Positions 4,001 to 52,444 of a stretch of DNA of 64,000 bases are shown here, one piece after another. The DNA comes from a virus. The translations under genes and the position numbers were made by a program. Every line of letters starts with the position of its first letter. Positions within the stretch are counted from its first letter, which is position 1. The notes under the pieces were generated by a model. It saw only the letters and a program-made list of their open reading frames with translations, made no database searches and had not been told where the DNA came from. Location of the stretch: positions 3,761 to 67,760 of the IMG/VR virus record IMGVR_UViG_3300014499_000004; one strand, 5' to 3'.

Positions 4001-5783
4001 CAGCTTCCCAAGCACCAATACCATCATTCCATGAACCAAGTGCGAATACATCACCAATGAGCCAGTGCTCACGACTTAATGAATACAGAAAATCTTGATA
4101 CTGTAAACCATCCCAAAACAACTCTGAGAAAAATTCATTAACTCTTTTATCAGGGTGGGCAAATTCCATTCCCAGCAATGGGAATCGAGAATAGATATCG
4201 ATCATTGAAGGAACTAGATAGTGAGTGGTGTAAATTAACCTTGCCCAGTCACGAATCTTTCGAGTTTGTTCGTCGGGATCCTCCATGTTGAACCACCATG
4301 TATTTTTTTGCGCCAATGATTCGACAACAAAACTATGGTCTTCTGTGATGGTAAAACTATAAATTGGCCCTGAATAATCTTCTTCAACTACTGATTTTAC
4401 AGGAACCCAATAACCTGTATCCGTTCTTTCAATTGGAAAACGACGTATATTTTCTTCGATAAATTTTGGATCATTATCAAAAATATCAACACCAAGCCAC
4501 TGCAAAAAACGTGGGTTATCAGAACGATTAATATTTACATTTTTGCCTTCTGTATTACTTGAGAAGGATTTAGTTGTACGTTTATAAATTGATGGGAAAA
4601 ATCCATTTCTTTCTAAGAGAAGAACAAGTTGGTCTGTAAGAGCATTTGAAGATGAGAAGAATGAACTTTCGACAGGTTGGTAACAACCATCTCCATCGAA
4701 GTAACCACGTAGAAGTGCCTTCTGCTTATTCTCTGGAAGGTGCATCATCCATTCTGGTAAATGCTTATTATATGCACCAGAACCAAATGTATTTCTGAAC
4801 CACTGTACTAATGCTTGACTAGTAATTATTACATTGATTGTATTATCAATATGTGAACGATCATCGATATGCCCATCTAGATCGAAGACTTTTTTTGCAT
4901 AATCAAGTATTTGATTTGCATATTCTGTCTCATTTTTATTTAGAGAAAAGGTAAGAGATTTATCACGATTTCCGCATGAACCCTCAGCAATATATAGACC
5001 ACTGAGCCACATCAATTCTTCCGTAACAGGGATTGAGATCGGAAGATTATTAATTGGTCGTCCAATATTCTTATACTGTCCAGATTTATGATGTGTAATA
5101 TATCCATCTTTAACAGTAAATTCATCATCATTTAGAGAATCAATTATAGATATTTCTTCATAGTCTTCAATAGAATTATCCACGGGAACAAAAACTAGAT
5201 CTCCGCGCTTTAGATGATTAATATGTACCCAGTCGATTACATCATTTCTTTTTGTCCAAAAAGGATGTCCCTCTGTTAAAGTAACTGGAAATCTATACTG
5301 AGGAGTTACTGTATAAATCTTACCGTCATATTGTTGTGTTTTTGTATCGAGAACTCTACGGTAACGACCCATATGTGTCAAAGCTTTATCACCACAAACT
5401 ACATCTTCAACCTTTTTAGCACCATCCAACAAACTCATCCACTGTCCAGGTAAAATACATCTCTCTCTAAACCACTCAAATGGGTCATGGAGTTTAGGCA
5501 TTGCCCACTCGGAGTTGGTGCCCATGGATGCACCAGTACGCTGATTTCTACTAACTGCTGGACCTATATTATCGCTAGGTAAATATAATTCTTTTTTGTT
5601 AGCACTAAAACTATTTAACCGCTCTCTACCAGCAGACATTCGGGTATAGTTTTTTACGTCTTGCGAGAGATTACCGTATCTACCAGTATCAACTGTACTT
5701 TGTGCGCGAAGACGATTAAAGAGAGGATTCCTCTTCATCTCATTTAATTGAGTAGAGGCCGACCAGTCTTTTTCGTTTGGCAT
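1035..5783 (-). CDS. portal-like protein precursor with two inteins (about 855 aa after splicing)
   Basis: Extein motifs RDWARLIYTTHYLVPSMIDIYSRFPL and HGTPLLMRAFRQLMMEESL typical of large-phage portals; next to the prohead protease. Confidence 0.75.
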   Translation of the reverse strand: MPNEKDWSASTQLNEMKRNPLFNRLRAQSTVDTGRYGNLSQDVKNYTRMSAGRERLNSFSANKKELYLPSDNIGPAVSRNQRTGASMGTNSEWAMPKLHDPFEWFRERCILPGQWMSLLDGAKKVEDVVCGDKALTHMGRYRRVLDTKTQQYDGKIYTVTPQYRFPVTLTEGHPFWTKRNDVIDWVHINHLKRGDLVFVPVDNSIEDYEEISIIDSLNDDEFTVKDGYITHHKSGQYKNIGRPINNLPISIPVTEELMWLSGLYIAEGSCGNRDKSLTFSLNKNETEYANQILDYAKKVFDLDGHIDDRSHIDNTINVIITSQALVQWFRNTFGSGAYNKHLPEWMMHLPENKQKALLRGYFDGDGCYQPVESSFFSSSNALTDQLVLLLERNGFFPSIYKRTTKSFSSNTEGKNVNINRSDNPRFLQWLGVDIFDNDPKFIEENIRRFPIERTDTGYWVPVKSVVEEDYSGPIYSFTITEDHSFVVESLAQKNTWWFNMEDPDEQTRKIRDWARLIYTTHYLVPSMIDIYSRFPLLGMEFAHPDKRVNEFFSELFWDGLQYQDFLYSLSREHWLIGDVFALGSWNDGIGAWEADELINPNDVVVAKNRALRTYQYHIKVPEEVKKLVETRQPEKEFAMLMAMYPDVVEYARKDVEIPVSDVIMKGIPYKCLVAGTDMLTPTGPRPVEDLQIGDPVIAWDITADTPVTSYVEHNSVKEASPVVTVTTKKGRTLTCTLDHPFLTPTGMINAIDLSPGDKIRIGTSIDLKSKEVPVDLAYFLGLMVGDGSYYSHCFEFHNEEQVLIDWVEEFVKQYDCVLHKKFKSSFAIVNDGTNGKTKFSTGSNNLRNLFRDLGIFGQKCQEKRVPQLIWEGSEEAKWAFLSGYLDSDGCLVSRTDQKSQKTYNAYDWASYNQKLLDDTQLLLSVLGVPTTRSPHHIKVESYQGVDILREKLTPLLPRKQLKQMWDQQVVSSSVLEWDTIKEIKVAGEQETYALCIAGAHTHVSAGLVTKNTNPWAEHGTPLLMRAFRQLMMEESLQASMEAISDRLYSPLILATLGLPDADGDGPWIPDAEELGALRDDLAMAINADFRLMVYHHGLEIQNAFGRESMPRLDDDFYRIQANYMMVFGIGSELLQGGKSGATYASGALNRELITQMLTTHQHQIKHFIQGRMRAVAERQGFYEYRNVGGHPVPIMETVLVVDEETGAQFVEERPKLAIPDIIFQSMSLQDENIEHQFLQQLAGMGLPVSFQTFTRNAGLDFEDEIETVKREKVDLVIAEQQVKKDIFDRCFQLQLPIPMEYQAEYEAYIMQLQDPQLAEQLRPGAIQGLGSPSPTPNIGGTPVHTDVNGIPNMYPSIANQETLDSLGTQKKHPPESHEQKKTQPKQSKSGKPNGPQKKTASIEDNEMVVTSKKTGDDIIIEEGAIVSNVGEEGGEWGKYRKSNPKQASVTEEFDGEREITYGDRMKFSVPWESQFRTQMKLANGQKIVVDDNYEKYDEIYMKDHIAKILESNVVGPEDNDFDDKLNEDIIPTNMDFDKHKSEMMGFDNKAITVVNTEDMGPKVTFGSQEFPNRKKPDDTKDK
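2751..3773 (-). mobile_element. intein 2 with LAGLIDADG homing endonuclease (341 aa)
   Basis: Starts CLVAGT, block B TLDHPF, motifs GLMVGDG and GYLDSDG, ends VTKN followed by Thr. Confidence 0.9.
4302..5459 (-). mobile_element. intein 1 with LAGLIDADG homing endonuclease (386 aa)
   Basis: Starts CILPG, block B TEGHPF, endonuclease motifs GLYIAEG and GYFDGDG, ends AQKN followed by Thr. Confidence 0.9.
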
Positions 5784-38912: not shown

Positions 38913-39170
38913 GTAGAGCTAGCTCTGTTATCAGGTAAAATATGGTACCAGTAATACCTTTTGATCTTTTCACAGGAAAATCTAATAGTATAATTCTATG
39001 ACATTTGTGTTCGTCTAATGCACCTGTTATAATGCCGTTATCGCACCTGCCAATGGGTAATGAGGTAAACACTTAATACCAATTGGTTAGACTAATGTGA
39101 TACCCAATAGAAAATATCTAATGGATGGGCTACGCCCAAAAAGAAATAAAAGAAAGTGAGTTAATTGATT

Positions 39171-39890
39171 ATGTCAAATGACTTTACTAGTGACAACACT
39201 GACGAGTTCGACGAACTTTTGGCATCCCTACCAGGGTTATCGCCAATTGTTCCCGGAAAGCGTGGTGGTGGACGAAAGGCTACCAATAACATTGGGGCTG
39301 ATGACTTGGGGCTGTCAATGCTCAAGACTCTTCGTTCGGACAATCACGTTGACTTGTTCACTGCTGGCAATCTAAAGGGTAATACCCTTTGGGGTGTCAT
39401 TGACCAAAAGTCCTACGATAGGGCTAATCAAGTCGCAATGGGCATAACTCCGAGTTATTCTCAGACTGGTATTCTTGCTGTTTCATTGGCAAGGACCAAT
39501 GAGGGTGAGATTTTCGTTCAGTGGTGGAAGGCAACATTGGTTAACAGTGTTCTGTCTTTCCAAAAGGTCCTTCGTAAGGGTGCTCAATACCTTTTGGGTG
39601 CTAACTCAAAGGGTCAAATGGGAATATGGAAGATTGATGCAACCAGTGGTCTTCCAGAAGTGAAGAACAATGGGGACTATTTCTCATTCCCATACTCCAC
39701 TTTGGTTGATTTCGAGGTTTACCTCAATGCCATCGTGGAAGTTCACGAAGTTGCTGTTTCATTCCCCAATGAGGAAGTTTCTCAATTGCGAGGTCTTGCT
39801 GAGATTCTCGCCCAAGTCAACCTCAATGCTATTATCAATGAGCCAGTTGAGGTAATGACTGAAGAAGAGGATGAAGAGGATGATGAGTAG
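39171..39890 (+). CDS. hypothetical protein with acidic tail (first rightward gene)
   Basis: 239 aa, ends EEEDEEDDE. Confidence 0.75.
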   Translation: MSNDFTSDNTDEFDELLASLPGLSPIVPGKRGGGRKATNNIGADDLGLSMLKTLRSDNHVDLFTAGNLKGNTLWGVIDQKSYDRANQVAMGITPSYSQTGILAVSLARTNEGEIFVQWWKATLVNSVLSFQKVLRKGAQYLLGANSKGQMGIWKIDATSGLPEVKNNGDYFSFPYSTLVDFEVYLNAIVEVHEVAVSFPNEEVSQLRGLAEILAQVNLNAIINEPVEVMTEEEDEEDDE

Positions 39891-39922
39891 GGGTTAATAA
39901 CCCCTGCTTCATCAACTCAATA

Positions 39923-40030
39923 CTAATCCTGGGTATGATTAGCGGTAATGATCAATACTAATAACTTGATTATGATCAGTTATTGATTAATGATCAGTAA
40001 TTGATTTAAGTCCGTACTCGATAACTGCCC
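39923..40030 (+). ncRNA. pseudoknot family A (with inserted hairpin)
   Basis: CTAATC-CTGGGTAT-GATTAG...ATAAC-TGCCC. Confidence 0.6.
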
Positions 40031-40069
40031 AATGTCTTGGTCCCCCCAGTAGTACAAATATCAAGACAT

Positions 40070-40142
40070 TCCCAGATAGCTCAATTGGCAGAGCAAATCC
40101 CTGTTAAGGATAAGGTTGTAGGTTCGAGTCCTGCTCTGGGAG
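40070..40142 (+). tRNA. tRNA-Asn(GTT)
   Basis: TCCCAGA/TCTGGGA acceptor, ATCC CTGTTAA GGAT anticodon arm, GGTTCGAGTCC. Confidence 0.9.
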
Positions 40143-40158
40143 CGATGTAAGTTCAATG

Positions 40159-40198
40159 CTAACTATTATTTCTTGAGACTAACTATTATTTCTTGAGA
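40159..40198 (+). repeat. 20-bp tandem duplication inside a hairpin
   Basis: CTAACTATTATTTCTTGAGA x2. Confidence 0.8.
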
Positions 40199-40423
40199 GT
40201 AGTTAGTATTGAGTCAAACACTAGGTTGATTCCAAATTTAGTGTTATTACATCCCACCTAAACTAGTGGCTAAATTAGTTTGCCAAGTAAGTAACGGCTT
40301 AGATACTTGCCTACCTCAAAGCCATCACTGGGGAGAATAAGATAGTAAGTGATGGCCGATTAATAATTTAATAGTGGTGCCCTAATGTGACCTGGGTTAA
40401 ATGACTGAGTACGAGCCACTATT

Positions 40424-40455
40424 AACTACCTTGGGACATGTAGTTAAACTGTCCC
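40424..40455 (+). ncRNA. pseudoknot family A
   Basis: AACTAC-CTTGGGACAT-GTAGTT-AAAC-TGTCCC. Confidence 0.7.
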
Positions 40456-40787
40456 CATTTCTTATTAATACTACGACTTGGAACATTGGATGTTTCCTTA
40501 GTATTGAGTCTAGTACACTTATTTTCATTTGTCAAGTGACCTGATGAGAGGGTGTAAATATAGAGTCATTGACGAAAATTTGATTAGGATAGCCTCTGAT
40601 CAGGTTATTTGTTTAATCATGACCAAATTGGTCAGTTATTGATAGATGTAATAAGTGATAGGGATTGGCAAAAGTTTCGCAGAAGGTCACCACCCTGTCT
40701 GTTATCAGTTTACCCTGTGGTGGGGATACTGATAGTTCCTATCACTTATTAGGTTTATCAATTAAATAAAATAAATAAGGAGAAATA

Positions 40788-40946
40788 ATGACTGACAAAT
40801 TAGGTGAAATTGCAAAATTACATCGACCCCAATTAAGAGCAACAAGGTTTCAAAAGGTTTTCTTTAGTATTAAGCCAGTAAGATGTTGCATTGAATGCAA
40901 TGAAGTTTGGCCTTGCAAAACAAGTCAGATTATAGCATCTTCATAG
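40788..40946 (+). CDS. small protein with CxxC...WPC motif
   Basis: Manual ORF, AAGGAG RBS, CIECNEVWPC. Confidence 0.65.
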   Translation: MTDKLGEIAKLHRPQLRATRFQKVFFSIKPVRCCIECNEVWPCKTSQIIASS

Positions 40947-41026
40947 GGTGCTATGTGTAGTGGAAGGTACAGAGCCAACAAAGGAATTTCGTGAATTCTA
41001 TTCCACTACGCATAAGGCTTTATGAA
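40934..41026 (+). ncRNA. pseudoknot family C
   Basis: AGCATC-TTCATAG-GGTGCT, long helix, AAGGC-TTTATGAA. Confidence 0.65.
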
Positions 41027-41041
41027 AACAAAGGAGAATAA

Positions 41042-41215
41042 ATGGTTAAACAAATAACCAGTAAAGTAGGATGTTATATCCAAATTCCTTACTGGCCAAA
41101 ACGTGGAGTTGTTATATTCAAACGAAGTAGATTGTTTAAACATAAGTTTCTTCCAGGTGAAGGCACAAAAGTTTGTATGATTTGCTTTGGTGTTATTCCC
41201 GTGGGAGGAGAATAA
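41042..41215 (+). CDS. small hypothetical protein
   Basis: Manual ORF, AAAGGAG RBS. Confidence 0.6.
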   Translation: MVKQITSKVGCYIQIPYWPKRGVVIFKRSRLFKHKFLPGEGTKVCMICFGVIPVGGE

Positions 41216-41471
41216 AGAATGTATGCAATTATAATCTTGATTTTGATCTTTGGTTTTGGATCATTTTCAATGGCTGCTTCTGCAAAGAACTGACTGGACT
41301 ACAAGTCAGTAATAATAGAGATAGGCGTGAACTTCGGTTAATAATCCTTTACGGGATAAAATTCCTATAATGAATAGTTCTCTATTATTTAAATGATCAG
41401 GAAACTCTATTAGAGATAATCAGAGAATTCTATCATTAGTGGAAGCATATACCACTTTAATAAAATGGTGC

Positions 41472-41505
41472 ACCAACCTGGGTATTGTTGGTTTAAAAAC
41501 TGCCC
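41472..41505 (+). ncRNA. pseudoknot family A
   Basis: ACCAAC-CTGGGTATT-GTTGGT-TTAAAAAC-TGCCC. Confidence 0.7.
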
Positions 41506-41585
41506 CATTTCTAATTGATCTTGTAGTGGAGAAGGGATGATACCCACCATTATTAGAAGTGAGCCATAACACTTTGAATCATGGT

Positions 41586-41619
41586 TGCACCTTGGATAAG
41601 TGCGTTAAATATGATCCAA
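41586..41619 (+). ncRNA. pseudoknot family A (variant)
   Basis: TGCAC-CTTGGATAA-GTGCG-TTAAATATG-ATCCAA. Confidence 0.5.
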
Positions 41620-41686
41620 TAATAAGTTACCCATGAATTTATTCTTAGCATATTAAGTGCTGGCTTTAACTTATTATTATAATATG

Positions 41687-41713
41687 TACCTGGATAAGTA
41701 ATTAAACTGTCTA
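41687..41713 (+). ncRNA. pseudoknot family A
   Basis: TAC-CTGGATAA-GTA-ATTAAAC-TGTCTA. Confidence 0.55.
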
Positions 41714-41719
41714 AACATT

Positions 41720-41779
41720 GGTCCTGGGTATGGCTGACATGCAGAAACCTAATGAGGTAAATGTATGGTTAAACTGCCC
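41720..41779 (+). ncRNA. pseudoknot family A (with inserted hairpin)
   Basis: GGTC-CTGGGTAT-GGCT...TTAAAC-TGCCC. Confidence 0.6.
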
Positions 41780-41832
41780 TTTTTCTTAACACAAATGTAA
41801 TAAGATTACAAGAATATTACAAAGGAGAAAAT

Positions 41833-42219
41833 ATGGCTTTAACTGAACAAGAGCAACAGAATGTTGACAATGGATTAACGACTGATGGTCGAGTTATTGA
41901 TATTGACCATTATCATTGTCCTGATGGTTGTGGAAGTCATGGAGGATGTTTCTTCGATTTCCATTTTGATGGACAAGTATGTGAATTGGGACATCCCCAA
42001 TTAGCATGTAGTTGGTGCGACTACAAAGGAAGTAGTGCAGAATTACTTGCAAACCATGTAATGTTAAATCATCATTTACTTGGTCTTCTAAAAACTATGG
42101 ATATCCCAGAGTGGAGAAGAAATGACATTGAATGGTTAAGACGCAATCTTCCATTTAATAATAGTGGACACCCTGATTTTGCTAGGGCTTGGAAATTATT
42201 AGGAATGGAACCATTGTGA
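41833..42219 (+). CDS. Cys/His-rich hypothetical protein
   Basis: C2H2-like CSWC...HVMLNH; C-terminal domain shared with 42572. Confidence 0.75.
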   Translation: MALTEQEQQNVDNGLTTDGRVIDIDHYHCPDGCGSHGGCFFDFHFDGQVCELGHPQLACSWCDYKGSSAELLANHVMLNHHLLGLLKTMDIPEWRRNDIEWLRRNLPFNNSGHPDFARAWKLLGMEPL

Positions 42220-42494
42220 TTAATTGGTTTGCAATCACAGTCATGGTTATTGTCTTTTTATTAGTAATAGACAATATTGTGGCTAATATCACTAAGACAA
42301 GAAAAGGAGGGAAAAAATGACAACAACCAAAGTCATTAACCGAAGAAAGAAGAAGAATCACCAGAATCGTCCCAAGCAGGTCTGGAACACTGAGACCAAG
42401 AAGTGGGAGCATAAGTAAACTCAGTTGTAGCTGATGTTTACATTGAATTGATGCTGGTATACATAAAGCCGATGTATACTATGAATAAGGCTGG

Positions 42495-42545
42495 ACCCAG
42501 AAGGTATAGTGAATTACAATTGAGGTTCGATTCCTCAACTGGGTA
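42495..42545 (+). ncRNA. top-half tRNA mimic (family B)
   Basis: ACCCAG...TGAGG TTCGATT CCTCA ACTGGGT A. Confidence 0.7.
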
Positions 42546-42571
42546 CTATGTATTAACTGAAAGGAGATTAA

Positions 42572-42832
42572 ATGATTGATACTAATGTTTGTTTCTTTGG
42601 ATGTGGTAAGATTCGTAGTACAGAAGATGATCCACGATTCTTTGATAAAGAAACAGATTTAGTATGTAAAGACTGTAGAGAAATTGAACGTCTTGTAACC
42701 AATATGGGTGTTCCAGAGTTTAGAACCCATGATTTTGGTTGGTTAAGACGAAATTTAGGAATAAATTTTAGTGAACACCCTGATTTTGATCAGGTTTCTA
42801 AACTATTAGAAGCACAAACAAGAAAAATATAA
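42572..42832 (+). CDS. hypothetical protein, paralog of 41833
   Basis: WLRRNL...HPDF shared. Confidence 0.75.
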   Translation: MIDTNVCFFGCGKIRSTEDDPRFFDKETDLVCKDCREIERLVTNMGVPEFRTHDFGWLRRNLGINFSEHPDFDQVSKLLEAQTRKI

Positions 42833-42840
42833 GGAGAAAT

Positions 42841-43020
42841 ATGAAACCAGGAACAAAAATGGTTAAGGATACTACCAGTAAAATCGATCATGATATTACG
42901 GTCAAGGGCACCAAGCAACACACCATTGCAATTTGTTATACTGAATCAGGTGGTGAGTTAATTGCAATTGGTTCACGTAATCATGTGAATCGTCAAGTAA
43001 GAATGCATAGAAGTAGGTAA
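42841..43020 (+). CDS. small hypothetical protein
   Basis: Manual ORF, AAGGAG RBS. Confidence 0.6.
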   Translation: MKPGTKMVKDTTSKIDHDITVKGTKQHTIAICYTESGGELIAIGSRNHVNRQVRMHRSR

Positions 43021-43024
43021 TAAT

Positions 43025-43180
43025 AGCGTCGTTAGGCGCTAAGTGTAGTGGGATATTACTTGTAGAACTATTCGCTAACTAGGCGGGCAAGTAATAGTAG
43101 GTTCCTAGTTGGATACTCTTATTGCTCGTAGCCTCTGGCTACATAGGTATAAGATTCCACTACACTTAAGGCTTAACGAA
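43025..43180 (+). ncRNA. pseudoknot family C
   Basis: AGCGTCGTTAGGCGCT, AAGTGTAGTGG/CCACTACACTT helix, AAGGC-TTAACGAA. Confidence 0.65.
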
Positions 43181-43200
43181 CAATAAAAAGGAGGTAAACA

Positions 43201-43593
43201 ATGATATTAGTCATTGATGATGTAAAGACATTTCCATTTCCAGATGATAAAGAAGTGTATTATGCTCGCACTTTGAAAGATGGTAATTTGTTTCTTGATC
43301 AATTTGAGAGAAATATTTACGCTACTTCAATGAATAATGAAAGTCTGGATGAACTCTGGCTTGACCATGATTTAGGTGGTGATGATACTATCAGATCAAT
43401 TTGTTTAATGCTTGCTGAAAGAGCATTTAATGGTAATCCTTATCCAGTTGGTCGTATTGTTATTTGTTCAATGAATCCAGTTGGTATTGATTGGATATGG
43501 TCAACACTAAGTCCATACTATGATCTGGTAATATGTAATGATCCAGAGTCAGTTCAAGATTTATTAGGTAGTACTCAAGCAAAGTGGTATTAA
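43201..43593 (+). CDS. cyclic-phosphate-processing receiver-like domain protein
   Basis: ILVIDD...LWLDHDLG...SMNPVG. Confidence 0.7.
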   Translation: MILVIDDVKTFPFPDDKEVYYARTLKDGNLFLDQFERNIYATSMNNESLDELWLDHDLGGDDTIRSICLMLAERAFNGNPYPVGRIVICSMNPVGIDWIWSTLSPYYDLVICNDPESVQDLLGSTQAKWY

Positions 43594-43722
43594 GAATGAC
43601 TTGAAGTTAATAGCTTCAAGGGTCACATGGAGTGGAATAGTTGGTACCAAGACTATTCTTTCGGTACACTCCATGTGTGCCTTGTAGTTATTAATAAAGG
43701 AGATTAATGATAAGGAGAATGA

Positions 43723-43917
43723 ATGAGTAGTGGTAAGAATAGTTGGACTAGAGAAGTAGTTTGTCAAGCTGTTATACCTATTAGAATTGATCCAACAGCA
43801 TCTGATGAGGAGGCTATTGAAGTAGTCCAAAAATTGATTGCAGATAGTCCTAGTGGAGCATTAAGAGTAGATCAATTGGACTTCTTTGCTATTCCTTTAG
43901 AGGATGAAGAAGAATGA
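43723..43917 (+). CDS. hypothetical protein
   Basis: AAGGAG RBS. Confidence 0.6.
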   Translation: MSSGKNSWTREVVCQAVIPIRIDPTASDEEAIEVVQKLIADSPSGALRVDQLDFFAIPLEDEEE

Positions 43918-44192
43918 AACTATCAGAACTAATCAAAGAACTGCAAGATGTTAAAGCAGAAATTGGTGATGTTGAAGTATTATCTACTGATGAGCATGGT
44001 AGTCTCAACATAATTGAATCAGTTAAAACTTCAGTTAATAAAAAGATGGTTATTATTGATACTGTAGATGATCTTCCAAGAAGAGGACCATTTAAGCCAT
44101 CTATCACTGGTAAAGAATTAGGTGAAATGGGTGGTATACCTGGAGTAACTGAAGAAGATGTTGAAGATTTTCTCCGAAATATTAGAGGATAA
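43914..44192 (+). CDS. hypothetical protein
   Basis: MKLSELIKELQ...GDVEV, common small phage protein start. Confidence 0.7.
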   Translation: MKLSELIKELQDVKAEIGDVEVLSTDEHGSLNIIESVKTSVNKKMVIIDTVDDLPRRGPFKPSITGKELGEMGGIPGVTEEDVEDFLRNIRG

Positions 44193-44199
44193 GTATTAA

Positions 44200-44244
44200 A
44201 CCCCATTACTTAAGTGTACGAGTGGAACAAGACCACATGGGGTA
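44200..44244 (+). ncRNA. top-half tRNA mimic, degenerate T-loop
   Basis: ACCCCAT...GTGG AACAAGA CCAC ATGGGGT A. Confidence 0.45.
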
Positions 44245-44323
44245 CTATGAAAGGAGATGATCATTATGCCCTAATTTAATTGTGTATAATACTTAACTAA
44301 TGAAATAAGAAAATATAGTATCT

Positions 44324-44351
44324 GGTCCTGAGTATGGACCTTAAACTGCTC
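44324..44351 (+). ncRNA. pseudoknot family A
   Basis: GGTCC-TGAGTAT-GGACC-TTAAAC-TGCTC. Confidence 0.75.
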
Positions 44352-44536
44352 CACATTGTTGGTTAGATGTAAGATACTATGAATTACCCATCAATGTCAG
44401 AGTGGAAAGTCCCAAATAATAGACCTGTAAATGGGGACTGAGATGGTAGTGGGTTCAGGCCATCATTTGATAAATACACAGACGGTTTCAGTACGCTTAT
44501 CAAGCTAGATATAATAAGTAATTATGGCCAATGTGG

Positions 44537-44564
44537 ACACCTTGGGTAAGTGTATAAACTGCCC
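44537..44564 (+). ncRNA. pseudoknot family A
   Basis: ACAC-CTTGGGTAA-GTGT-ATAAAC-TGCCC. Confidence 0.75.
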
Positions 44565-44603
44565 CATTTCGTGTGTTAACGAATCAATAATAAAGGAGAA
44601 TGA

Positions 44604-45155
44604 ATGAAAAAATCATTAATTGCACTTTCATTGTTGTCACCTTTATTGTTGACTTCAACTGCTAGTGCAACGAATAATCAACCGTTAACATTACCGCCTG
44701 CATTAAATGCATTTGGTAATCAAAAATTCGAAGATTGTATATACTCTGCTGATGCAAACATGGTAGAACTATATGATCCCCATGTTCATATTACTGTAAA
44801 ACAAGTAATAGAGGCATTCCAAACCTATGGAGAATCAGATGGTCTCAACTATATGATAACCAATGGTTTTGATGGAGTAAAAGCCAGTACTATTATTGAT
44901 CTTGGCAAGAATACTATTAATCTTTCAACTGAACTTGCTAATGGTGGAGTTCAAGCATGGATTAATTTTCCAGGCCAAGGTCAACATGCAGTAGCAATAA
45001 TACAAGTCACTAACAAACAAATTGAGTTTGTGAGTTGGGGATATAAGTATTGGTGGAGTTTAAAAGAGTATCAAACAAAAATGTATGATCAATATACATT
45101 CATATGGAATGGAAATAGGAGAAAAAATGAGTTATTTTATACAATCAGGAGATAG
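44604..45155 (+). CDS. secreted papain/C39-like cysteine peptidase
   Basis: Signal peptide, EDC, QHAVAI, VSWG. Confidence 0.55.
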   Translation: MKKSLIALSLLSPLLLTSTASATNNQPLTLPPALNAFGNQKFEDCIYSADANMVELYDPHVHITVKQVIEAFQTYGESDGLNYMITNGFDGVKASTIIDLGKNTINLSTELANGGVQAWINFPGQGQHAVAIIQVTNKQIEFVSWGYKYWWSLKEYQTKMYDQYTFIWNGNRRKNELFYTIRR

Positions 45156-46185
45156 TTTTTTTCCTGCAGCTTCTAAAGAAGCATTATTGGAAGGATTACC
45201 TTCGGGTAATTATACAATAGAACAAAGTATGACAGGATTATTCTTTAAAAGAATAGAAAGTTTTCAACCTTTAGATAAGGTTTATGGAAGCCTAAATACT
45301 TGGGCAGAACGCACTCTTCAAACATTTGAAGATCGTGAAGTTAGTACAGGTATTCTTTTGTCAGGAGAAAAAGGTAGTGGAAAATCACTATTAGGTAGAC
45401 TTATTTCACTAAAAGCTCATGATAAGAGTATTCCTACAGTAATAGTAAATGCTCCTTTTGAGGGTGCTGCACTACTAAAACTATTTGGAGAACTTACTCA
45501 ACCTGTAATAGTATTTTTTGATGAATTTGATAAAGTTTATAGTGATCTTGATCTTCAAGAATCAGTTTTATCATTACTCGATGGTATTTCAGGTACTAAA
45601 CATTTGTTTATCATTACTTGTAATGATCTTTATCGTTTATCAAGATTTCTATTAAATCGACCAGGAAGAATTTTCTATTTCATTGAATTTAATGGGATAG
45701 AAGAAAGTTTTATTAGGGAATATTGTAAAGATAATCTTAATAATAAGTCAGAAATTGATAATATTGTTAAAATTTCAAAAATCTTTGAGAAGTTCAATTT
45801 TGATATGCTTAAATCATTAGTTGAAGAAATGAATAGATATAATGAATCAGCACTTAAAGCAATTGAACTATTAAATATTACTCCTTCTCATCAAAATAAT
45901 GTTGAATATAAAGTTTCTATCACAGATAAAGATAATAATGAATATATCAATTATCCTAATGAATGGGATGGATTCCCTCTAGAAGAGGAAAAGTTTGATA
46001 TGAGAATTATGAGAACTGATGATAAAGAGAAAAAGGAATGGTTGGAGATAATGTTTTTAGATTCAGATCTAAATAATTTTGATACTTCTAATAAAGTATT
46101 TACTTACATTAATAAACAAGGATTTATTTTAACTTTCAAAATTTCTGAACAGAAACACACAAATTGGATGAGTGCATTATATTAG
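45127..46185 (+). CDS. AAA family ATPase
   Basis: GEKGSGKS Walker A, VFFDEFDK Walker B, NRPGR; start reassigned after AGGAG. Confidence 0.9.
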   Translation: MSYFIQSGDSFFPAASKEALLEGLPSGNYTIEQSMTGLFFKRIESFQPLDKVYGSLNTWAERTLQTFEDREVSTGILLSGEKGSGKSLLGRLISLKAHDKSIPTVIVNAPFEGAALLKLFGELTQPVIVFFDEFDKVYSDLDLQESVLSLLDGISGTKHLFIITCNDLYRLSRFLLNRPGRIFYFIEFNGIEESFIREYCKDNLNNKSEIDNIVKISKIFEKFNFDMLKSLVEEMNRYNESALKAIELLNITPSHQNNVEYKVSITDKDNNEYINYPNEWDGFPLEEEKFDMRIMRTDDKEKKEWLEIMFLDSDLNNFDTSNKVFTYINKQGFILTFKISEQKHTNWMSALY

Positions 46186-46198
46186 AATTAAGTATCAT

Positions 46199-46270
46199 AG
46201 CATCGTATGGTGCTAAGGGTATTAGCATATAGCCCATAACGGGATGCTAGTACTCTTAGGGCTATACGAA
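46199..46270 (+). ncRNA. pseudoknot family C
   Basis: AGCATCGTATGGTGCT, AAGGGTATTAGCAT/ATGCTAGTACTCTT, AGGGC-TATACGAA. Confidence 0.65.
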
Positions 46271-46329
46271 AGTATTAGTCTATAAATAAAGTAAGGAATC
46301 TCATAATGAGAAAAATAAAGGAGAAAGAA

Positions 46330-46644
46330 ATGCCATTAGTAACAGATAAGGTTAAGGCTGCGCTTCAAGTTCAGTATGATGAGTATGCTGAAACAACGCG
46401 ACTTAATCAGTTGGCTAGTCCCGGGGGAACCAAGAAGATAGTTAAGGGTGAGGAAGTTTTTGAGCCATTTCCTGATGCTGTTTCCTTCGATCAGTGGGTG
46501 AAAGAACAGCTCACCAGCGAGTTGGAAACACAACTTAAAAATCTGGCTAATCATCGATTGGGTAATAAGTACAGCGTAGTTGCTGGTACTGTTAGCGATG
46601 CTCTCATTGGATTTTATCAGGGGCTCATTGCTGAGGTGAAGTAA
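46330..46644 (+). CDS. hypothetical protein
   Basis: Start reassigned after AAGGAG. Confidence 0.7.
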   Translation: MPLVTDKVKAALQVQYDEYAETTRLNQLASPGGTKKIVKGEEVFEPFPDAVSFDQWVKEQLTSELETQLKNLANHRLGNKYSVVAGTVSDALIGFYQGLIAEVK

Positions 46645-46907
46645 TGCCTATTGTTGATGAACCTAAAGAACCTAAAACAGTAAGAGTTATTACCGATGGG
46701 GGCAGCCATGCCATGAAAGGTGAAATTCTTACAGTAAGATCATGGCCTGACCCTAGCTATGAAATGACTTACTATCAAATCAATAGAAATGGTATATGGA
46801 CCGACAAGAGTATTAAAATATCTAATACTGAACTAGTGAATATTGAAGATATTGATAATACTTCAAAGAGTGAGTTTAACTTTACTTTGATAGCAGTAGG
46901 GAATTAA
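46644..46907 (+). CDS. hypothetical protein
   Basis: Ends FNFTLIAVGN. Confidence 0.65.
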   Translation: MPIVDEPKEPKTVRVITDGGSHAMKGEILTVRSWPDPSYEMTYYQINRNGIWTDKSIKISNTELVNIEDIDNTSKSEFNFTLIAVGN

Positions 46908-46908
46908 C

Positions 46909-47142
46909 ATGAATCCAACACTTAGAGTTAAACTTGTTGCTAACAAAGCTAGATATAATGGTAATAGATATCCAATCGGTACAGAAATTGAAGTAACTCA
47001 AAGCGAAAGAGATAAAAGGAAATTTTTCTTTCCTCGTAAAGACTATTATTGTTACAGAGAAGACTTTGAGATACTCGGAGAATCGTATAACGAAAGTAGT
47101 AGTGGAATGAATTTTGCTCAGATAGCAATGGGTAATTTGTAG
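46909..47142 (+). CDS. hypothetical protein
   Basis: Ends MNFAQIAMGNL. Confidence 0.65.
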   Translation: MNPTLRVKLVANKARYNGNRYPIGTEIEVTQSERDKRKFFFPRKDYYCYREDFEILGESYNESSSGMNFAQIAMGNL

Positions 47143-47155
47143 TACAATGTTTTAT

Positions 47156-47250
47156 AGCACCGTCGTATGGTGCTAAGAGTAGTAGAGCCAGAGAAAACAA
47201 CACGGTAGGTTATCGTCATTGCAACTCTACTACTCTTAGGACTATGCGAA
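47156..47250 (+). ncRNA. pseudoknot family C
   Basis: AGCACC-GTCGTAT-GGTGCT, AAGAGTAGTAGAG/CTCTACTACTCTT, AGGAC-TATGCGAA. Confidence 0.65.
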
Positions 47251-47271
47251 TAGTTTAATAGAAGGAGAAAA

Positions 47272-47592
47272 ATGAGCGAAAGAACAGTTTTAGAATGGGA
47301 AGAATATATATGTAATGGACTTCCTGCTGTAAGAACTAAACAAGGAAAGAAGTGGGATATCCATGTATGGGGTGGGACAAAAGAAAATCCTGTCTATGCA
47401 CTTTCAGTTAGTGGTATACTTATTATTCAAGTAAATATTCCATCTATAGAAATAGCTAAAAGAATTGCACAAGAACTTCAACATGTTCTGGATGGTAATC
47501 TAATGGAAACTATTGGTGAACTTGTAGTAATTGCTTATCAACGTGGTTTGACGAATGGGCAACCATTAGAAGAAAGTGAGATGAATATATAA
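47272..47592 (+). CDS. hypothetical protein
   Basis: AAGGAG RBS. Confidence 0.7.
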   Translation: MSERTVLEWEEYICNGLPAVRTKQGKKWDIHVWGGTKENPVYALSVSGILIIQVNIPSIEIAKRIAQELQHVLDGNLMETIGELVVIAYQRGLTNGQPLEESEMNI

Positions 47593-48026
47593 TGAGTATT
47601 TGGAGTTCAATACCTGGAACTTTTGCACTTCATTATGAAAATAGTGTTACTGATCCTCGTAAAGCAAAACGATTACCAGGAGTAATGCCTGGTGAGTTTG
47701 GTGATGAAATTGATCTAGCAGTAGTTGTTAATGATGTTTATGAAGATGCTCCCAATGAAGAGGGTTATTTACCTTATTTGCGTGTTGGTGTCACTGTTAA
47801 TAATTTTACTAAGGGAGATGTAATTCTAAATCGTAAGCAAGTAAAGAAATTACGTAATGAATTAAATAGATTTCTTAAAGAAACTAAAAAGAAGAAAGAG
47901 ACTATTGAAGAATTAGCACCAGGTCCTCACGGTAATGGATATACTTGCAAAAGTTGTGGTGAAAGTGCAATAACTTGTGGTATGCGTGAGAATGGTGATT
48001 GTTGTAATCACTGTGATCATAGTTAA
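47592..48026 (+). CDS. hypothetical protein with C-terminal Cys cluster
   Basis: CKSCG...CCNHCDH. Confidence 0.7.
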   Translation: MSIWSSIPGTFALHYENSVTDPRKAKRLPGVMPGEFGDEIDLAVVVNDVYEDAPNEEGYLPYLRVGVTVNNFTKGDVILNRKQVKKLRNELNRFLKETKKKKETIEELAPGPHGNGYTCKSCGESAITCGMRENGDCCNHCDHS

Positions 48027-48035
48027 TGAATTATA

Positions 48036-48640
48036 ACTATCAGGATAGCTAATATTATTAGCGTATCTAGGATCAAATCCACTGATAGTACGATGTATAG
48101 TTAGATGCTCTTGCACGAAGCAATCATCGGTGAAGAAGAACCCCGCGTATTGCGGTTAGTAGCTTGCTATACATTAAGTGGAAGCACCATATTGTGTTGG
48201 AATATAATCGCCAATCAATAGTAGGTAAGCTGGGTGTATGCCATACTCTGGGTTGGGTATGTGCGCTGATTGGTCTGCGTATAGTAGATCCTACATTAAT
48301 GTATTAATGTAAAAATTTGAAAAGTGATAAGAGTAACTGTTCTGAACGAGCTAAAAGTAAAGATCTTTTGCGGTCTGTTCTAACTCCCTGATATTACCGT
48401 ATCATGGAACAGATTCTGTCGAACAATGAAAACACTTTCGAATTAAAGTTGGAATATATTGGTGCCAACCTCTTCCAATTTTCTTATTAATAATTAATGT
48501 AGGGTCTGCTATCGGCTAACCAATTAGAATTAGTCAATAGTCTTCCTAATAGAGATACTGTATTAAGGGCTTTTTATATTTTTTCACTCTTAATATACTG
48601 TCGGAGTAGTGTTCATTTGGATGATAACACTATTTATTAG
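48036..48640 (+). ncRNA. candidate large structured ncRNA region
   Basis: No convincing ORF; about 40-bp imperfect helix 48266-48308 with 48486-48527 and nested stems. Confidence 0.45.
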
Positions 48641-52159: not shown

Positions 52160-52444
52160 ATGTATGAAGATTTTGCAAAACAACATTTTGAAAAATTAAA
52201 AGGAACAGATAATGATTATTTAGTAATATGTAGAGAAAATAATTCTACTGCTGGTCCATATAGAGATTATGGTTGGAGTACAATACCATATCCGCCTCTT
52301 TGGAACACTATCGAAGAAGCAATTAGATGGCACTTTGAAAAAGGTTGGCAGATAGTTGAAATATATGATCTGTATGCAGAATGGCATAAAGCAATAATAA
52401 GAAGTGTTGAAAAAGCTGATAAACAGAAAAGAGAAAGTTTTTAA
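52160..52444 (+). CDS. hypothetical protein, paralog of 56098
   Basis: KQHF, DYLVI, WSTIP, IYDLYA shared. Confidence 0.75.
   Translation: MYEDFAKQHFEKLKGTDNDYLVICRENNSTAGPYRDYGWSTIPYPPLWNTIEEAIRWHFEKGWQIVEIYDLYAEWHKAIIRSVEKADKQKRESF

What the first reader, a model, noticed from the sequence alone, without database searches (positions are those of the whole stretch)
40934..47250. Third RNA family: four pseudoknots with a long inserted helix sitting between genes
Seen at 40934, 43025, 46199 and 47156: ATAGCRYC-loop-GGYGCT, then a 13-14 bp helix with a variable cap (about 16-100 nt), then ARGRC, then a tail complementary to the first loop. Loop/tail pairs are TTCATAG/TTATGAA, TCGTTA/TAACGA, TCGTAT/ATACGA and TCGTAT/ATGCGA. 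Each begins at or within about 14 nt of an upstream stop, and three end 4-11 nt before a Shine-Dalgarno. Inference: a self-cleaving ribozyme, riboswitch-like leader or double-strand RNase site. I could not match it to hammerhead, twister, pistol or HDV cores by eye.
Basis: partly seen in the sequence, partly recalled or inferred. Interest (0 to 1): 0.8.

Follow-up and report, generated by a model that had tools for sequence, protein, structure and literature searches.

The report
Two-state RNA hairpins between phage genes
A small family of folded RNA elements sits between the early genes of an uncultured peat phage; they look most like the signals at which long phage messages are cut into single-gene pieces, but carry an unusual built-in alternative fold.

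Summary
No Rfam family matches. Ten more members occur in four metagenome contigs of related phages. Two of them sit in the same gene slots as e3 and e2, with many compensatory changes.

The clean-pseudoknot reading is only partly right. The 3' strand of P1 (GGYGC) has two mutually exclusive partners, and both are supported by covariation:
- the 5' arm AGCRYC, which gives P1;
- the junction plus tail.

The second pairing turns the loop-tail helix into a 9-11 bp lower stem. This stacks under the 14-16 bp helix across a 2x2 or 1x1 internal loop. This two-tier rod is the predicted minimum-energy fold in 14 of 14 members. Five members have 4-nt loops that cannot hold the loop-tail helix with P1 intact.

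My best reading (about 0.4) is a T7-type double-strand RNase (RNase III) processing and stability signal in the polycistronic early mRNA. P1 would then be the hairpin left on the upstream message. No cleavage is shown. I found no support for a ribozyme or a riboswitch.

Earlier notes of this scan describe T7-like intercistronic hairpins on other phage DNA, but not this family.

The parts
40932..41026 (+). Element e1. 5' ATA 40932-34; P1 5' arm 40935-39; loop 40940-46 (holds the TAG stop of ORF 40788-40946); P1 3' arm 40947-51; long helix 40952-65 / 41001-14 with a 35-nt cap; junction AGGC 41015-18; tail 41020-26. SD AAGGAG at 41031; start codon at 41042.
   Evidence: parse. (MFE is a rod, -36.7 kcal/mol). 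(CM 108.5 bits).
43023..43179 (+). Element e2. P1 43026-30 / 43035-39 with the 4-nt loop GTTA; long helix 43040-54 / 43154-68 with a 99-nt structured cap; junction AGGC 43169-72; tail 43174-79. SD at 43188. The downstream gene 43201-43593 is cREC_REC.
   Evidence: (-67.2 kcal/mol). Same slot as L132b upstream of a cREC_REC homologue.
46197..46269 (+). Element e3. P1 46200-04 / 46209-13 with loop GTAT; long helix 46214-28 / 46244-58 with a 15-nt cap; junction GGGC 46259-62; tail 46264-69. It lies 11 nt after the stop of the ATPase gene (45085-46185). The next start codon, 46330, is about 60 nt further on.
   Evidence: -40.5 kcal/mol. Positional orthologue of L137a / L132a behind a 67%-identical ATPase.
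47154..47249 (+). Element e4. P1 47157-61 / 47169-73 with loop GTCGTAT; long helix 47174-87 / 47225-38 with a 37-nt cap; junction GGAC 47239-42; tail 47244-49. SD at 47262; start codon at 47272.
   Evidence: MFE -41.6 kcal/mol on the 103-nt stretch folded there; -42.1 with two more 5' bases. (CM 103.1 bits). Near-identical copy in metagenome contig L148, differing by one base deleted in the cap.
40636..40764 (+). Variant of the same architecture with a different sequence: a 5' competitor hairpin, a 10-bp lower stem, a 1x1 loop, a 17-bp upper stem, a branched cap, and AGG in the junction. SD follows at about 40776.
   Evidence: the fifth hit of the structural descriptor. (14.3 bits, E 0.38). 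(MFE -53.4 kcal/mol, z -6.5).
43597..43696 (+). Variant of the same architecture: competitor hairpin CTTGAAG / CTTCAAG with loop TTAATAG, a lower stem of 10 + 5 bp split by a 1x1 mismatch, a 2x2 loop and an 11-bp upper stem. SD follows directly.
   Evidence: 13.1 bits, E 0.8. (MFE -43.8 kcal/mol, z -6.8).

Best explanation
The elements are cis-acting RNA structures inside the polycistronic early transcript of an uncultured peat/permafrost phage. Each can adopt two folds.

Fold A is the predicted most stable one. It is a two-tier rod with these parts:
- a lower stem of 9-11 bp, made of the P1 loop plus GGY pairing with junction positions 3-4, the next base and the tail;
- a small internal loop, GC opposite AG, or 1x1;
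- a perfect upper stem of 14-16 bp;

Fold B is a local 6-10 bp hairpin (P1) made by the conserved 5' arm AUAGCRYC with GGYGCU. It leaves the tail single-stranded.

I infer that the rod, with more than two helical turns, is a substrate for the host double-strand-specific endonuclease RNase III, as are the intercistronic signals of phage T7. Cutting near the internal loop would have three effects:
- it would release the capped upper hairpin;
- it would give the downstream gene an unstructured leader of about 20-30 nt ahead of its Shine-Dalgarno;
- it would free the upstream fragment to refold into P1, a 3'-terminal hairpin directly behind its stop codon that protects it from 3' exonucleases.

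Shown here: the RNA-level structure, the two competing covarying pairings, the gene grammar and the conservation in orthologous slots. Inferred: transcription as one message, cleavage, the enzyme, the cut site and the post-cleavage role of P1.
For: 1. RNA, not a DNA palindrome. The gene-strand fold is more stable than its reverse complement in 14 of 14 members (mean -40.0 against -29.1 kcal/mol). The structural descriptor hits only the + strand.

2. The rod.
- ViennaRNA's MFE is the nested two-tier hairpin in 14 of 14 members.
- It beats the tail-free P1 + helix fold by 3.8-10.6 kcal/mol, mean 6.7.
- On the CM alignment of 11 of the 14 members, 97.9% of cells pair, and 0 of 500 shuffles reach any of the five measures. 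The extension helix (columns 22-24 with 154-156) pairs in 100% of cells, with G-C to A-U and G-U to U-A exchanges. Column 27 pairs with column 151 (UA in 10 rows, GC in 1) rather than with the 5' A.

3. P1 also covaries: 64 of 65 cells in 13 members and 97% on the CM alignment. Both folds are therefore under selection.

4. Loop-tail specificity. The own-tail helix averages 7.1 contiguous pairs, with 7 or more in 12 of 14 members. Tails of other members give 4.4 and shuffled tails give 4.2.

5. Orthologous slots.
- e3 and L137a both follow an ATPase gene that is 67% identical.
- e2 and L132b both precede a cREC_REC gene that is 48% identical.
- In both pairs P1, the long helix and the loop-tail helix differ at many positions yet stay paired (for L132b).

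6. Grammar like the T7 sites.
- An upstream stop lies within -28 to +12 nt of the element start in 11 of 14 members. An SD starts 11-23 nt after the junction in 9 of 14.
- The T7 early intergenic hairpins, folded here, are also two-tier: 8 bp, an internal loop, 10 bp, and an SD about 10 nt behind.

7. What is known of RNase III substrates (passages of PMC1540722 read): they typically span two helical turns; a typical target site is cut on both strands; internal loops or bulges can restrict cutting to one strand and so leave protective 3' hairpins.

8. No promoter-like or terminator-like site coincides with any of the four elements. This fits read-through transcription.

9. In distant relatives the slot behind the ATPase gene holds a terminator plus promoter-like hexamers, a tRNA gene, or nothing. 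It is a punctuation slot.
Against: - No cleavage is shown.
- The only RNA data are contigs, which cannot give RNA ends.
- The internal loop is small and symmetric (2x2 or 1x1), unlike the asymmetric 4x5 loops of the T7 sites folded.
- T7 sites have no 5' competitor arm. The post-cleavage role I give P1 is my own inference.
- The host, and so its RNase III specificity, is unknown.
- No RNase III gene lies in the 48%-complete record. That is expected if the host enzyme is used, but it gives no support either.
- Sequence conservation of the first four base pairs of the upper stem and of the junction G could equally mark a sequence-specific protein site.
- The energy model used cannot score pseudoknots. 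'Rod more stable' is therefore not a test against a pseudoknot in the 7-nt-loop members.
- The members are few (14, from about four phages) and related, so the covariation counts include shared ancestry.
Confidence: 0.4

Rival explanations
1. A genuine H-type pseudoknot. It would act as a translational operator or leader: P1 and the loop-tail helix form together, the purine-rich junction lies in the P1 groove, and a phage or host protein, or the 30S subunit, reads the fold just upstream of the Shine-Dalgarno.
For: - P1 (97% of cells) and the loop-tail helix (93.2%) both covary.
- Nine of 14 members have loops of 5-9 nt, in which both helices could coexist.
- The element ends 4-12 nt before an SD in e1, e2 and e4.
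- The conserved junction G and the conserved first pairs of the long helix could be protein contacts.
Against: - Five of 14 members have 4-nt loops, so a 7-bp loop-tail helix cannot coexist with P1.
- Junction positions 3-4 and the next base pair Watson-Crick with the P1 3' strand in 39 of 39 cells, with compensatory changes. A pure pseudoknot model does not explain this.
- e3 and its orthologues L137a / L132a travel with the upstream gene and are not next to an SD.
Confidence: 0.18
2. A translation-sensing switch. A ribosome terminating at the upstream stop, which lies 0-14 nt before or inside the 5' arm, masks AUAGCRYC. It thereby decides between hairpin P1 and the rod, coupling the fate of the downstream cistron (initiation, re-initiation across the rod base, or cutting) to translation of the upstream one.
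For: - There are two mutually exclusive, covarying pairings.
- An upstream stop lies within -28 to +12 nt of the element start in 11 of 14 members, and inside the P1 loop in e1.
- The rod base brings the stop codon and the next SD close together.
Against: - The rod is predicted to win by 3.8-10.6 kcal/mol even without a ribosome, so masking the 5' arm would change little at equilibrium.
- Neither fold pairs with the SD itself.
- This is pure inference, with no data on translation.
Confidence: 0.12
3. A passive stability element that is not cut. A very stable hairpin would block 3'-to-5' exonucleases for the upstream cistron, and 5'-end-dependent decay (RNase J or RNase E) for the downstream one.
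For: - The folds are very stable: -32 to -67 kcal/mol, z -3.5 to -9.3.
- They sit at cistron borders.
- The element follows either its upstream gene (e3 / L137a) or its downstream gene (e2 / L132b) when gene order changes.
Against: - It does not explain why the competing P1 pairing and the conserved internal loop are kept.
- Any stable hairpin would do, yet the two-tier geometry and stem lengths are conserved.
Confidence: 0.1
4. A new self-cleaving ribozyme that cuts the early transcript, as hammerheads do around genes in prophages.
For: - Ribozymes that flank single genes in prophage transcripts are documented (PMC3088659, passages read).
- About ten positions are invariant.
- The order of strands (P1 5' arm, partner of the tail, P1 3' arm, hairpin, junction ending in C/U, tail) is that of an HDV-like fold without P3. 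I recall the HDV layout; it comes from no call.
- One 151-nt RNA contig ends at 40931, one base before e1. It is a single low-depth contig.
Against: - No ribozyme family of Rfam 15 matches, even at E up to 10.
- There is no room for P3 / L3 / P1.1: 0-1 nt lie between the loop strand and the P1 3' arm.
- Nearly all conserved positions are in Watson-Crick helices, and few unpaired conserved bases remain to build an active site.
Confidence: 0.05
5. A DNA-level element: a recombination site of gene cassettes (attC-like), another protein-bound inverted repeat, or a mobile repeat that shuffles early genes.
For: - Presence and absence differ between related phages, and gene order differs while elements stay with their genes.
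- The two-tier stem with a variable tip resembles a folded attC site.
Against: - There is strong strand asymmetry, through G-U pairs, in 14 of 14 members.
- No tyrosine recombinase lies in the record (the record is 48% complete).
- The attC core order as I recall it (RYYYAAC at the 5' end, GTTRRRY at the 3' end) is reversed where such words occur at all (e2, L129a, L129b), and they are absent from the other members.
- All copies are co-oriented with the genes.
Confidence: 0.05
6. A metabolite-sensing riboswitch.
For: A two-state architecture sits just upstream of ribosome-binding sites.
Against: - No Rfam riboswitch matches at the elements. The one riboswitch row in the E<=10 list lies at 44583-44650, away from all four.
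- There is hardly any conserved unpaired core.
- The downstream genes are unrelated to each other.
- The variable cap and the freely covarying helices leave no candidate pocket.
Confidence: 0.03

Closest known systems
RNase III processing signals between the early genes of phage T7 (R0.3, R0.5, R1, R1.1, R1.3). The names and their assignment to these intergenic hairpins are recalled from Dunn and Studier 1983. They are not annotated in the record fetched.
   Same: - Paralogous two-tier hairpins between co-directional early genes.
- The lower stem, internal loop and upper stem add up to about two helical turns or more.
- They begin just after a stop codon and end about 4-12 nt before the next SD.
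- Sequence next to the internal loop is conserved among the copies.
   Different: - The internal loop is 2x2 or 1x1, not about 4x5.
- The upper stem is 14-16 bp with a variable 15-99-nt cap, not 10 bp with a 4-5-nt loop.
- The folds are much more stable: -32 to -67 against -20 to -26 kcal/mol.
- A conserved 5' arm offers an alternative hairpin, which T7 sites lack as far as I recall.
- Cleavage is untested.
Classical H-type pseudoknots with a hairpin inserted in loop 3. The preQ1-II riboswitch layout is recalled from memory.
   Same: The order of strands is the same: a hairpin whose loop pairs with a 3' tail lying next to the ribosome-binding site, with an extra hairpin in between.
   Different: - No match to any Rfam riboswitch model at the elements.
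- The tail helix extends into the P1 3' strand.
- 4-nt loops in 5 of 14 members exclude coexistence of the two helices.
- The SD is not part of the pairing.
Hammerhead ribozymes flanking single genes in prophage transcripts (PMC3088659; passages read)
   Same: Repeated structured RNAs at gene borders of phage polycistronic messages, thought to cut them into single-gene mRNAs.
   Different: No hammerhead core or Rfam match. Nothing here indicates self-cleavage.
Lambda sib retroregulation (recalled, not checked here)
   Same: An RNase III-sensitive long hairpin that competes with a shorter local hairpin made from part of the same sequence.
   Different: In lambda the choice is set by where transcription ends. 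Here both arms lie inside one transcript, and the element occurs many times per genome.

Membership tests
T7-type RNase III intercistronic processing signal | Hairpin of about two helical turns interrupted by an internal loop | tested here: met
   Lower stem of 9-11 bp plus a 2x2 or 1x1 loop plus an upper stem of 14-16 bp in 14 of 14 MFE folds. The pairs covary. T7 sites were folded for comparison.
T7-type RNase III intercistronic processing signal | Lies between co-directional cistrons, shortly upstream of the next ribosome-binding site | tested here: met
   a stop lies within -28 to +12 nt of the element start in 11 of 14 members. An SD starts 11-23 nt after the junction in 9 of 14.
T7-type RNase III intercistronic processing signal | Asymmetric internal loop that restricts cutting to one strand | tested here: not met
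   The loops are symmetric, 2x2 (GC/AG) or 1x1. The T7 folds show about 4x5.
T7-type RNase III intercistronic processing signal | Site-specific cleavage by RNase III | not testable with these tools
   Only RNA contigs were available. No raw reads and no enzyme assay.
   P1 97.0% and loop-tail helix 93.2% of cells paired, with 0 of 500 shuffles reaching any measure; own tail 7.1 against 4.4 for other members' tails.
   In the 5 of 14 members with 4-nt loops, the 7-bp tail helix uses 2 nt of the P1 5' strand and 1 nt of its 3' strand. In all members the first three bases of the P1 3' strand also pair with the junction.
Known self-cleaving ribozyme classes (hammerhead, twister, twister-sister, pistol, hatchet, HDV, hairpin and others in Rfam 15) | Match to the family covariance model | tested here: not met
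   At gathering thresholds the window gives only 3 tRNAs. At E up to 10 over 40500-47600, none of the 11 weak rows is a ribozyme family.
HDV-like ribozyme | Nested double pseudoknot with P3 / L3 / P1.1 between the P2 5' strand and the P1 3' strand (layout recalled) | tested here: not met
   Only 0-1 nt separate the loop strand from the P1 3' arm.
Riboswitch | Match to a known aptamer model | tested here: not met
   No riboswitch model matches at the elements. The one riboswitch row in the E<=10 list, AdoCbl-II at 44583-44650 (18.1 bits against a gathering score of 36.5, E 3.1), lies away from all four.
Riboswitch | Controls functionally related genes | tested here: not met
   Of the four downstream genes, one is cREC_REC. 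The other three have no family and no similarity to one another.
Integron attC site | Conserved core words in the order RYYYAAC ... GTTRRRY (recalled) | tested here: not met
   Such words occur only in e2, L129a and L129b, and there in the opposite order. The strand asymmetry in 14 of 14 members also points to RNA rather than folded DNA.
Integron attC site | A tyrosine recombinase nearby | tested here: not met
   PF00589 is absent from the record, which is 48% complete.
Intrinsic terminator | G+C-rich hairpin followed by a U tract | tested here: not met
   None of the 6 terminator-like sites in 39000-48500 coincides with an element. The tails are followed by A-rich spacers.

The most novel reading that the evidence does not exclude
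The two covarying, mutually exclusive pairings are a working switch rather than a before-and-after-cleavage pair. The ribosome that terminates on the upstream gene covers the 5' arm. It so decides whether the local hairpin or the long rod forms. Cutting or (re)initiation at the next cistron would then be coupled to translation of the previous one. Together with the tRNA-half mimics and the AAACUGCCCC-type leaders in equivalent slots of the same phage, this would be a phage-encoded punctuation code for early mRNA with a translation-sensing member.
Probability: 0.12. Interest if true: 0.75.

Novelty: new variant of a known kind. Interest (0 to 1): 0.45.

Why it matters
If these are processing signals, this uncultured peat phage punctuates its early message with at least three interchangeable kinds of structured RNA. 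The early-gene logic of T7 would then extend to a very different, environmentally common phage lineage.

The built-in competitor hairpin would be a new design feature. It would act either as a cap that forms only after the cut or as a sensor of upstream translation.

The family is small (83-167 nt) and has clear compensatory variants. That makes it a convenient model for asking how phages set the stability and translation of individual cistrons, and a possible part for synthetic operons.

Tried and rejected
1. Known families. Rfam at gathering thresholds and at E up to 10 over 40500-47600 gave only chance-level snoRNA, miRNA and similar rows. Two of these lie on the opposite strand of e2 and e4 (E 5 and 4.4).

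2. More members in public collections.
- Viral contigs with four patterns gave 42, 2, 0 and 0 stretches. None of the 44 has the long helix; the best is 9 of 12 pairs.
- Genome contigs gave 17 stretches, none accepted. The best, L164 at 11 of 12 pairs, is the same G+C-rich sequence as L127 and has no loop-tail pairing.
- Metagenome contigs gave 22 stretches, of which 5 are real (L129, L132, L137, L147, L148). L127 was rejected.

3. Relatives found through proteins.
- 80 loci around ATPase homologues at 38-52% identity hold no member, by descriptor.
- Five whole related virus records hold none by CM (0 of 5; that call had no positive control).
- A single-sequence search with the cREC protein in viral contigs found no relative.
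They could show whether e2 is conserved there.

4. A relaxed structural descriptor gave 1289 raw hits on one strand of the window and was useless.

5. MAFFT alignments (A1-A4) misplace the 3-nt loop indel and the caps. They were not used for counting.

6. RNA evidence.
- Four metatranscriptome runs, held only as contigs, were laid on 40500-47600.
- No listed contig covers any of the four elements. The two bins that hold e3 and e4 have depth 0 in all four runs, apart from 0.2 for X17 at e4.
- One 151-nt contig ends at 40931. One contig starts, with adaptor, at 43194, 15 nt after e2.
- Holes and single contig ends are not evidence, and 14 further pieces were not shown. I draw nothing from this.

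7. Other checks.
- A promoter or terminator reading was rejected.
- A phage-encoded RNase III was not found, nor an integrase. The record is 48% complete.
- Papers: three searches listed nothing describing such a family. I saw only listings and abstract starts, plus passages of PMC3088659 and PMC1540722. Supplementary files were not consulted.
- A tRNA-like (T-arm or anticodon-arm) reading of P1 was considered by eye and dropped: the closing pair and the loop do not fit the T-loop consensus as I recall it.

Full report
WHAT THE WINDOW IS

The window is 64 kb of a 67.8-kb IMG/VR virus record that CheckV estimates to be 48% complete. Its DNA recurs in peat and permafrost metagenomes, and parts of it occur in peat metatranscriptomes. 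Genes at 1-38 kb run on the minus strand. They include a portal-like giant ORF. From about 39 kb a block of small genes runs on the plus strand, with many non-coding gaps. All four elements lie in this block.

THE OBSERVATION

Each has these parts, in order:
- a 5' ATA;
- P1 (GCRYC with GRYGC), with a loop of 4 or 7 nt;
- a four-base purine-rich junction (AGGC, GGGC or GGAC);
- one T;
- a 6-7-nt tail complementary to the P1 loop.

Evidence that this is not chance:
- The sequence pattern occurs four times forward and never in the reversed control.
- A sequence-blind structural descriptor finds the four elements plus one more place (40636) on the plus strand and nothing on the minus strand.
- The same descriptor gives 7 unrelated hits in 1.7 Mb of other phage DNA.

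Rfam 15 has no matching family, at gathering thresholds or at E up to 10.

RELATIVES

Pattern scans of IMG/VR and of one genome per prokaryote species returned only chance matches, as judged by the long helix.
- Five are real. L148 is the same phage as the window. L129, L132, L137 and L147 are different phages.
- L129 shares genes and the other leader types with the window.

An anchored scan and a covariance model built from e1, e4 and L129b found further copies in those loci. I count 14 members with the full architecture:
- e1-e4 in the window;
- L129 at 1361, 2938 and 3195;
- L132, minus strand, at 913 and 621;
- L137, minus strand, at 177 and 1893;
- L147, minus strand, at 9140, 12000 and 11320.

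Looser variants lie at window 40636 and 43597, L129 about 1010, and L137 5242 and 5113. At E up to 1e-5 the model returns 11 hits, all on the gene strand. Five whole related virus records have none, nor do 80 loci around distant ATPase homologues. The family is therefore confined to a narrow group of soil and peat phages.

THE STRUCTURE: TWO COMPETING FOLDS

On the CM alignment of 11 members, P1 pairs in 97.0% of cells, the loop-tail helix in 93.2% and the long helix in 99.3%. Eighteen of 25 pairs change on both sides, and 0 of 500 shuffles reach any measure. That alignment was fitted to P1 and the long helix, but not to the loop-tail helix. Each tail fits its own loop: 7.1 contiguous pairs on average, against 4.4 for other members' tails and 4.2 for shuffled tails.

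Free-energy folding gave an unexpected result. In 14 of 14 members the minimum-energy structure is not P1 plus the long helix. It is one nested hairpin in which the loop and the first three bases of the P1 3' strand pair with junction positions 3-4, the following base and the tail. This gives:
- a 9-11 bp lower stem;
- a 2x2 (GC opposite AG) or 1x1 internal loop;
- a 14-16 bp upper stem.

The extension is not a folding artefact:
- Its three pairs are canonical in 39 of 39 cells of my own alignment of 13 members (L132b was left out because of a bulge) and in 100% of cells of the CM alignment.
- They show G-C to A-U and G-U to U-A exchanges.
- In L129b the A that mismatches in P1 pairs in the extension.
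- The T after GGYGC covaries with the first junction A (UA in 10 rows, GC in 1) and not with the 5' A.

The rod is predicted to be 3.8-10.6 kcal/mol more stable than the best fold with a free tail. That free-tail fold is a 6-10 bp P1 hairpin plus the long helix.

Five of the 14 members have 4-nt P1 loops. Their 7-bp tail helix must consume three P1 nucleotides. The element is therefore better described as bistable, either a local hairpin or a long two-tier rod, than as a static H-type pseudoknot. In members with 5-9-nt loops a pseudoknot intermediate remains possible, and the energy model cannot score it.

RNA OR DNA

The gene-strand fold is more stable than its reverse complement in 14 of 14 members (-40.0 against -29.1 kcal/mol on average), because of G-U pairs. 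This argues for a transcript structure and against a DNA palindrome or a cassette recombination site. No integrase lies in the record. The attC core words, as I recall them, are absent or in the wrong order.

CONTEXT

- A long reading frame stops within -28 to +12 nt of the element start in 11 of 14 members. A Shine-Dalgarno begins 11-23 nt after the junction in 9 of 14.
- No promoter-like or terminator-like site coincides with the four elements.
- e3 and L137a / L132a both sit directly behind an ATPase gene that is 67% identical.
- e2 and L132b both sit directly in front of a cREC_REC gene that is 48% identical.
- In the L132 / L137 phage these two genes are neighbours and both elements are kept in tandem. 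An element thus stays with its upstream gene in one case and with its downstream gene in the other.
- Across these orthologous pairs P1, the long helix and the loop-tail helix differ at many positions yet remain paired (for L132b).
- In distant relatives the slot behind the ATPase gene holds a terminator with promoter-like hexamers, a tRNA gene, or nothing.
- In the window itself, equivalent slots in front of other early genes hold tRNA top-half mimics and AAACTGCCCC-type leaders.

MECHANISM

The rod has the anatomy and the placement of the intercistronic hairpins of the T7 early region. I folded those from NC_001604 for comparison: an 8-bp lower stem, an internal loop, a 10-bp upper stem and a Shine-Dalgarno about 10 nt behind. 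That these are the RNase III sites is recalled; the record does not annotate them.

Passages of PMC1540722 state the following about bacterial RNase III:
- substrates typically span two helical turns;
- a typical target site is cut on both strands;
- internal loops or bulges can limit cutting to one strand and so leave protective 3' hairpins.

With only a 2x2 or 1x1 loop, the elements would more likely be cut on both strands. That would remove the hairpin that protects the upstream message in T7. The conserved 5' arm offers a replacement. Once the tail is cut away, the upstream fragment can refold into P1 immediately behind its stop codon. The downstream fragment would start with an unstructured leader of about 20-30 nt. 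This accounts for selection on both pairings and for elements that serve either neighbour. Every step after 'the rod forms' is inference, and I put it at about 0.4.

RIVALS

- A true pseudoknot operator read by a protein or by the 30S subunit (0.18).
- A translation-sensing switch in which the terminating ribosome masks the 5' arm (0.12).
- A passive stability hairpin (0.10).
- A new ribozyme (0.05). Precedent for ribozymes around prophage genes comes from PMC3088659, but there is no model match and almost no unpaired conserved core here.
- A DNA-level site (0.05).
- A riboswitch (0.03).

RNA DATA

Four metatranscriptome runs hold parts of the region, but only as contigs. They show that neighbouring non-coding stretches yield abundant, adaptor-flanked RNAs. 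They neither cover nor bridge any of the four elements.

NOVELTY AND SCORE

The family is absent from Rfam. My three literature searches listed nothing like it (listings and abstract starts only). As a kind it is closest to T7-type processing hairpins. Earlier notes of this scan report such hairpins in other phages, but not this family. The competing, covarying 5' hairpin is the new feature. I class it as a new variant of a known kind, with interest 0.45.

Noticed in passing
window 42551-42907: RNA contigs of all four metatranscriptome runs cover this stretch at the highest or second-highest depth of the region (65, 26, 47 and 9.5). All end at 42906/42907, inside ORF 42841-43020. Two runs read into adaptor at both ends. 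The starts (42551-42574) lie just 3' of a tRNA top-half mimic. This looks like a discrete RNA of about 350 nt.
   Followed up: no
window 44258-44528 and 41303-41504: These ORF-free stretches carry the CTGGGTA...AAACTGCCCC motif and give abundant RNA contigs (depth up to 92 and 113), partly adaptor-flanked.
   Followed up: no
window 42495-42548: An acceptor-stem plus T-arm mimic (ACCCAG / CTGGGT with a GGTTCGATTCC loop) sits directly upstream of the SD of gene 42572-42832. Similar mimics precede the starts at 52160, 56098 and 60702.
   Followed up: no
window 43201-43593; L132 148-474 (-): The gene behind e2 is a cREC_REC (cyclic-phosphate processing receiver, PF20274) protein. It has 87 homologues in metagenomes. 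Its homologue in L132 is also preceded by a family member.
   Followed up: partly
L132 / L137 compared with window 43023-46269: Gene order differs between the phages. In L132 / L137 the order is ATPase, element, element, cREC. In the window the order is e2, cREC, then further genes, then ATPase, e3. Each element has stayed with one gene, as if the modules recombine between elements.
   Followed up: partly
L137 5002-5242 (-): Two two-tier rods stand in direct tandem. The 5' competitor of the first is identical to its own tail, TTATCAAT.
   Followed up: partly
L132a against L137a (L132 841-913, L137 105-177, both -): These near-identical orthologues differ by a compensatory double change in the cap hairpin (CTTTG...CAAAG against CCTTG...CAAGG). 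At least this cap is therefore structured too.
   Followed up: no
window 1035-5783 (-): A 1582-aa ORF combines a strong portal-protein match (residues about 1008-1317) with weaker nuclease-like and helicase-like matches further towards the N terminus.
   Followed up: no
L129 3052-3210; window 41833-42219 and 42572-42832: A short domain (PEF/WR..D..WL.RNL....HPDF) recurs in several small early proteins. In L129 it is a separate gene preceded by element L129b. In the window it is the C-terminal part of larger ORFs preceded by other leader types.
   Followed up: partly
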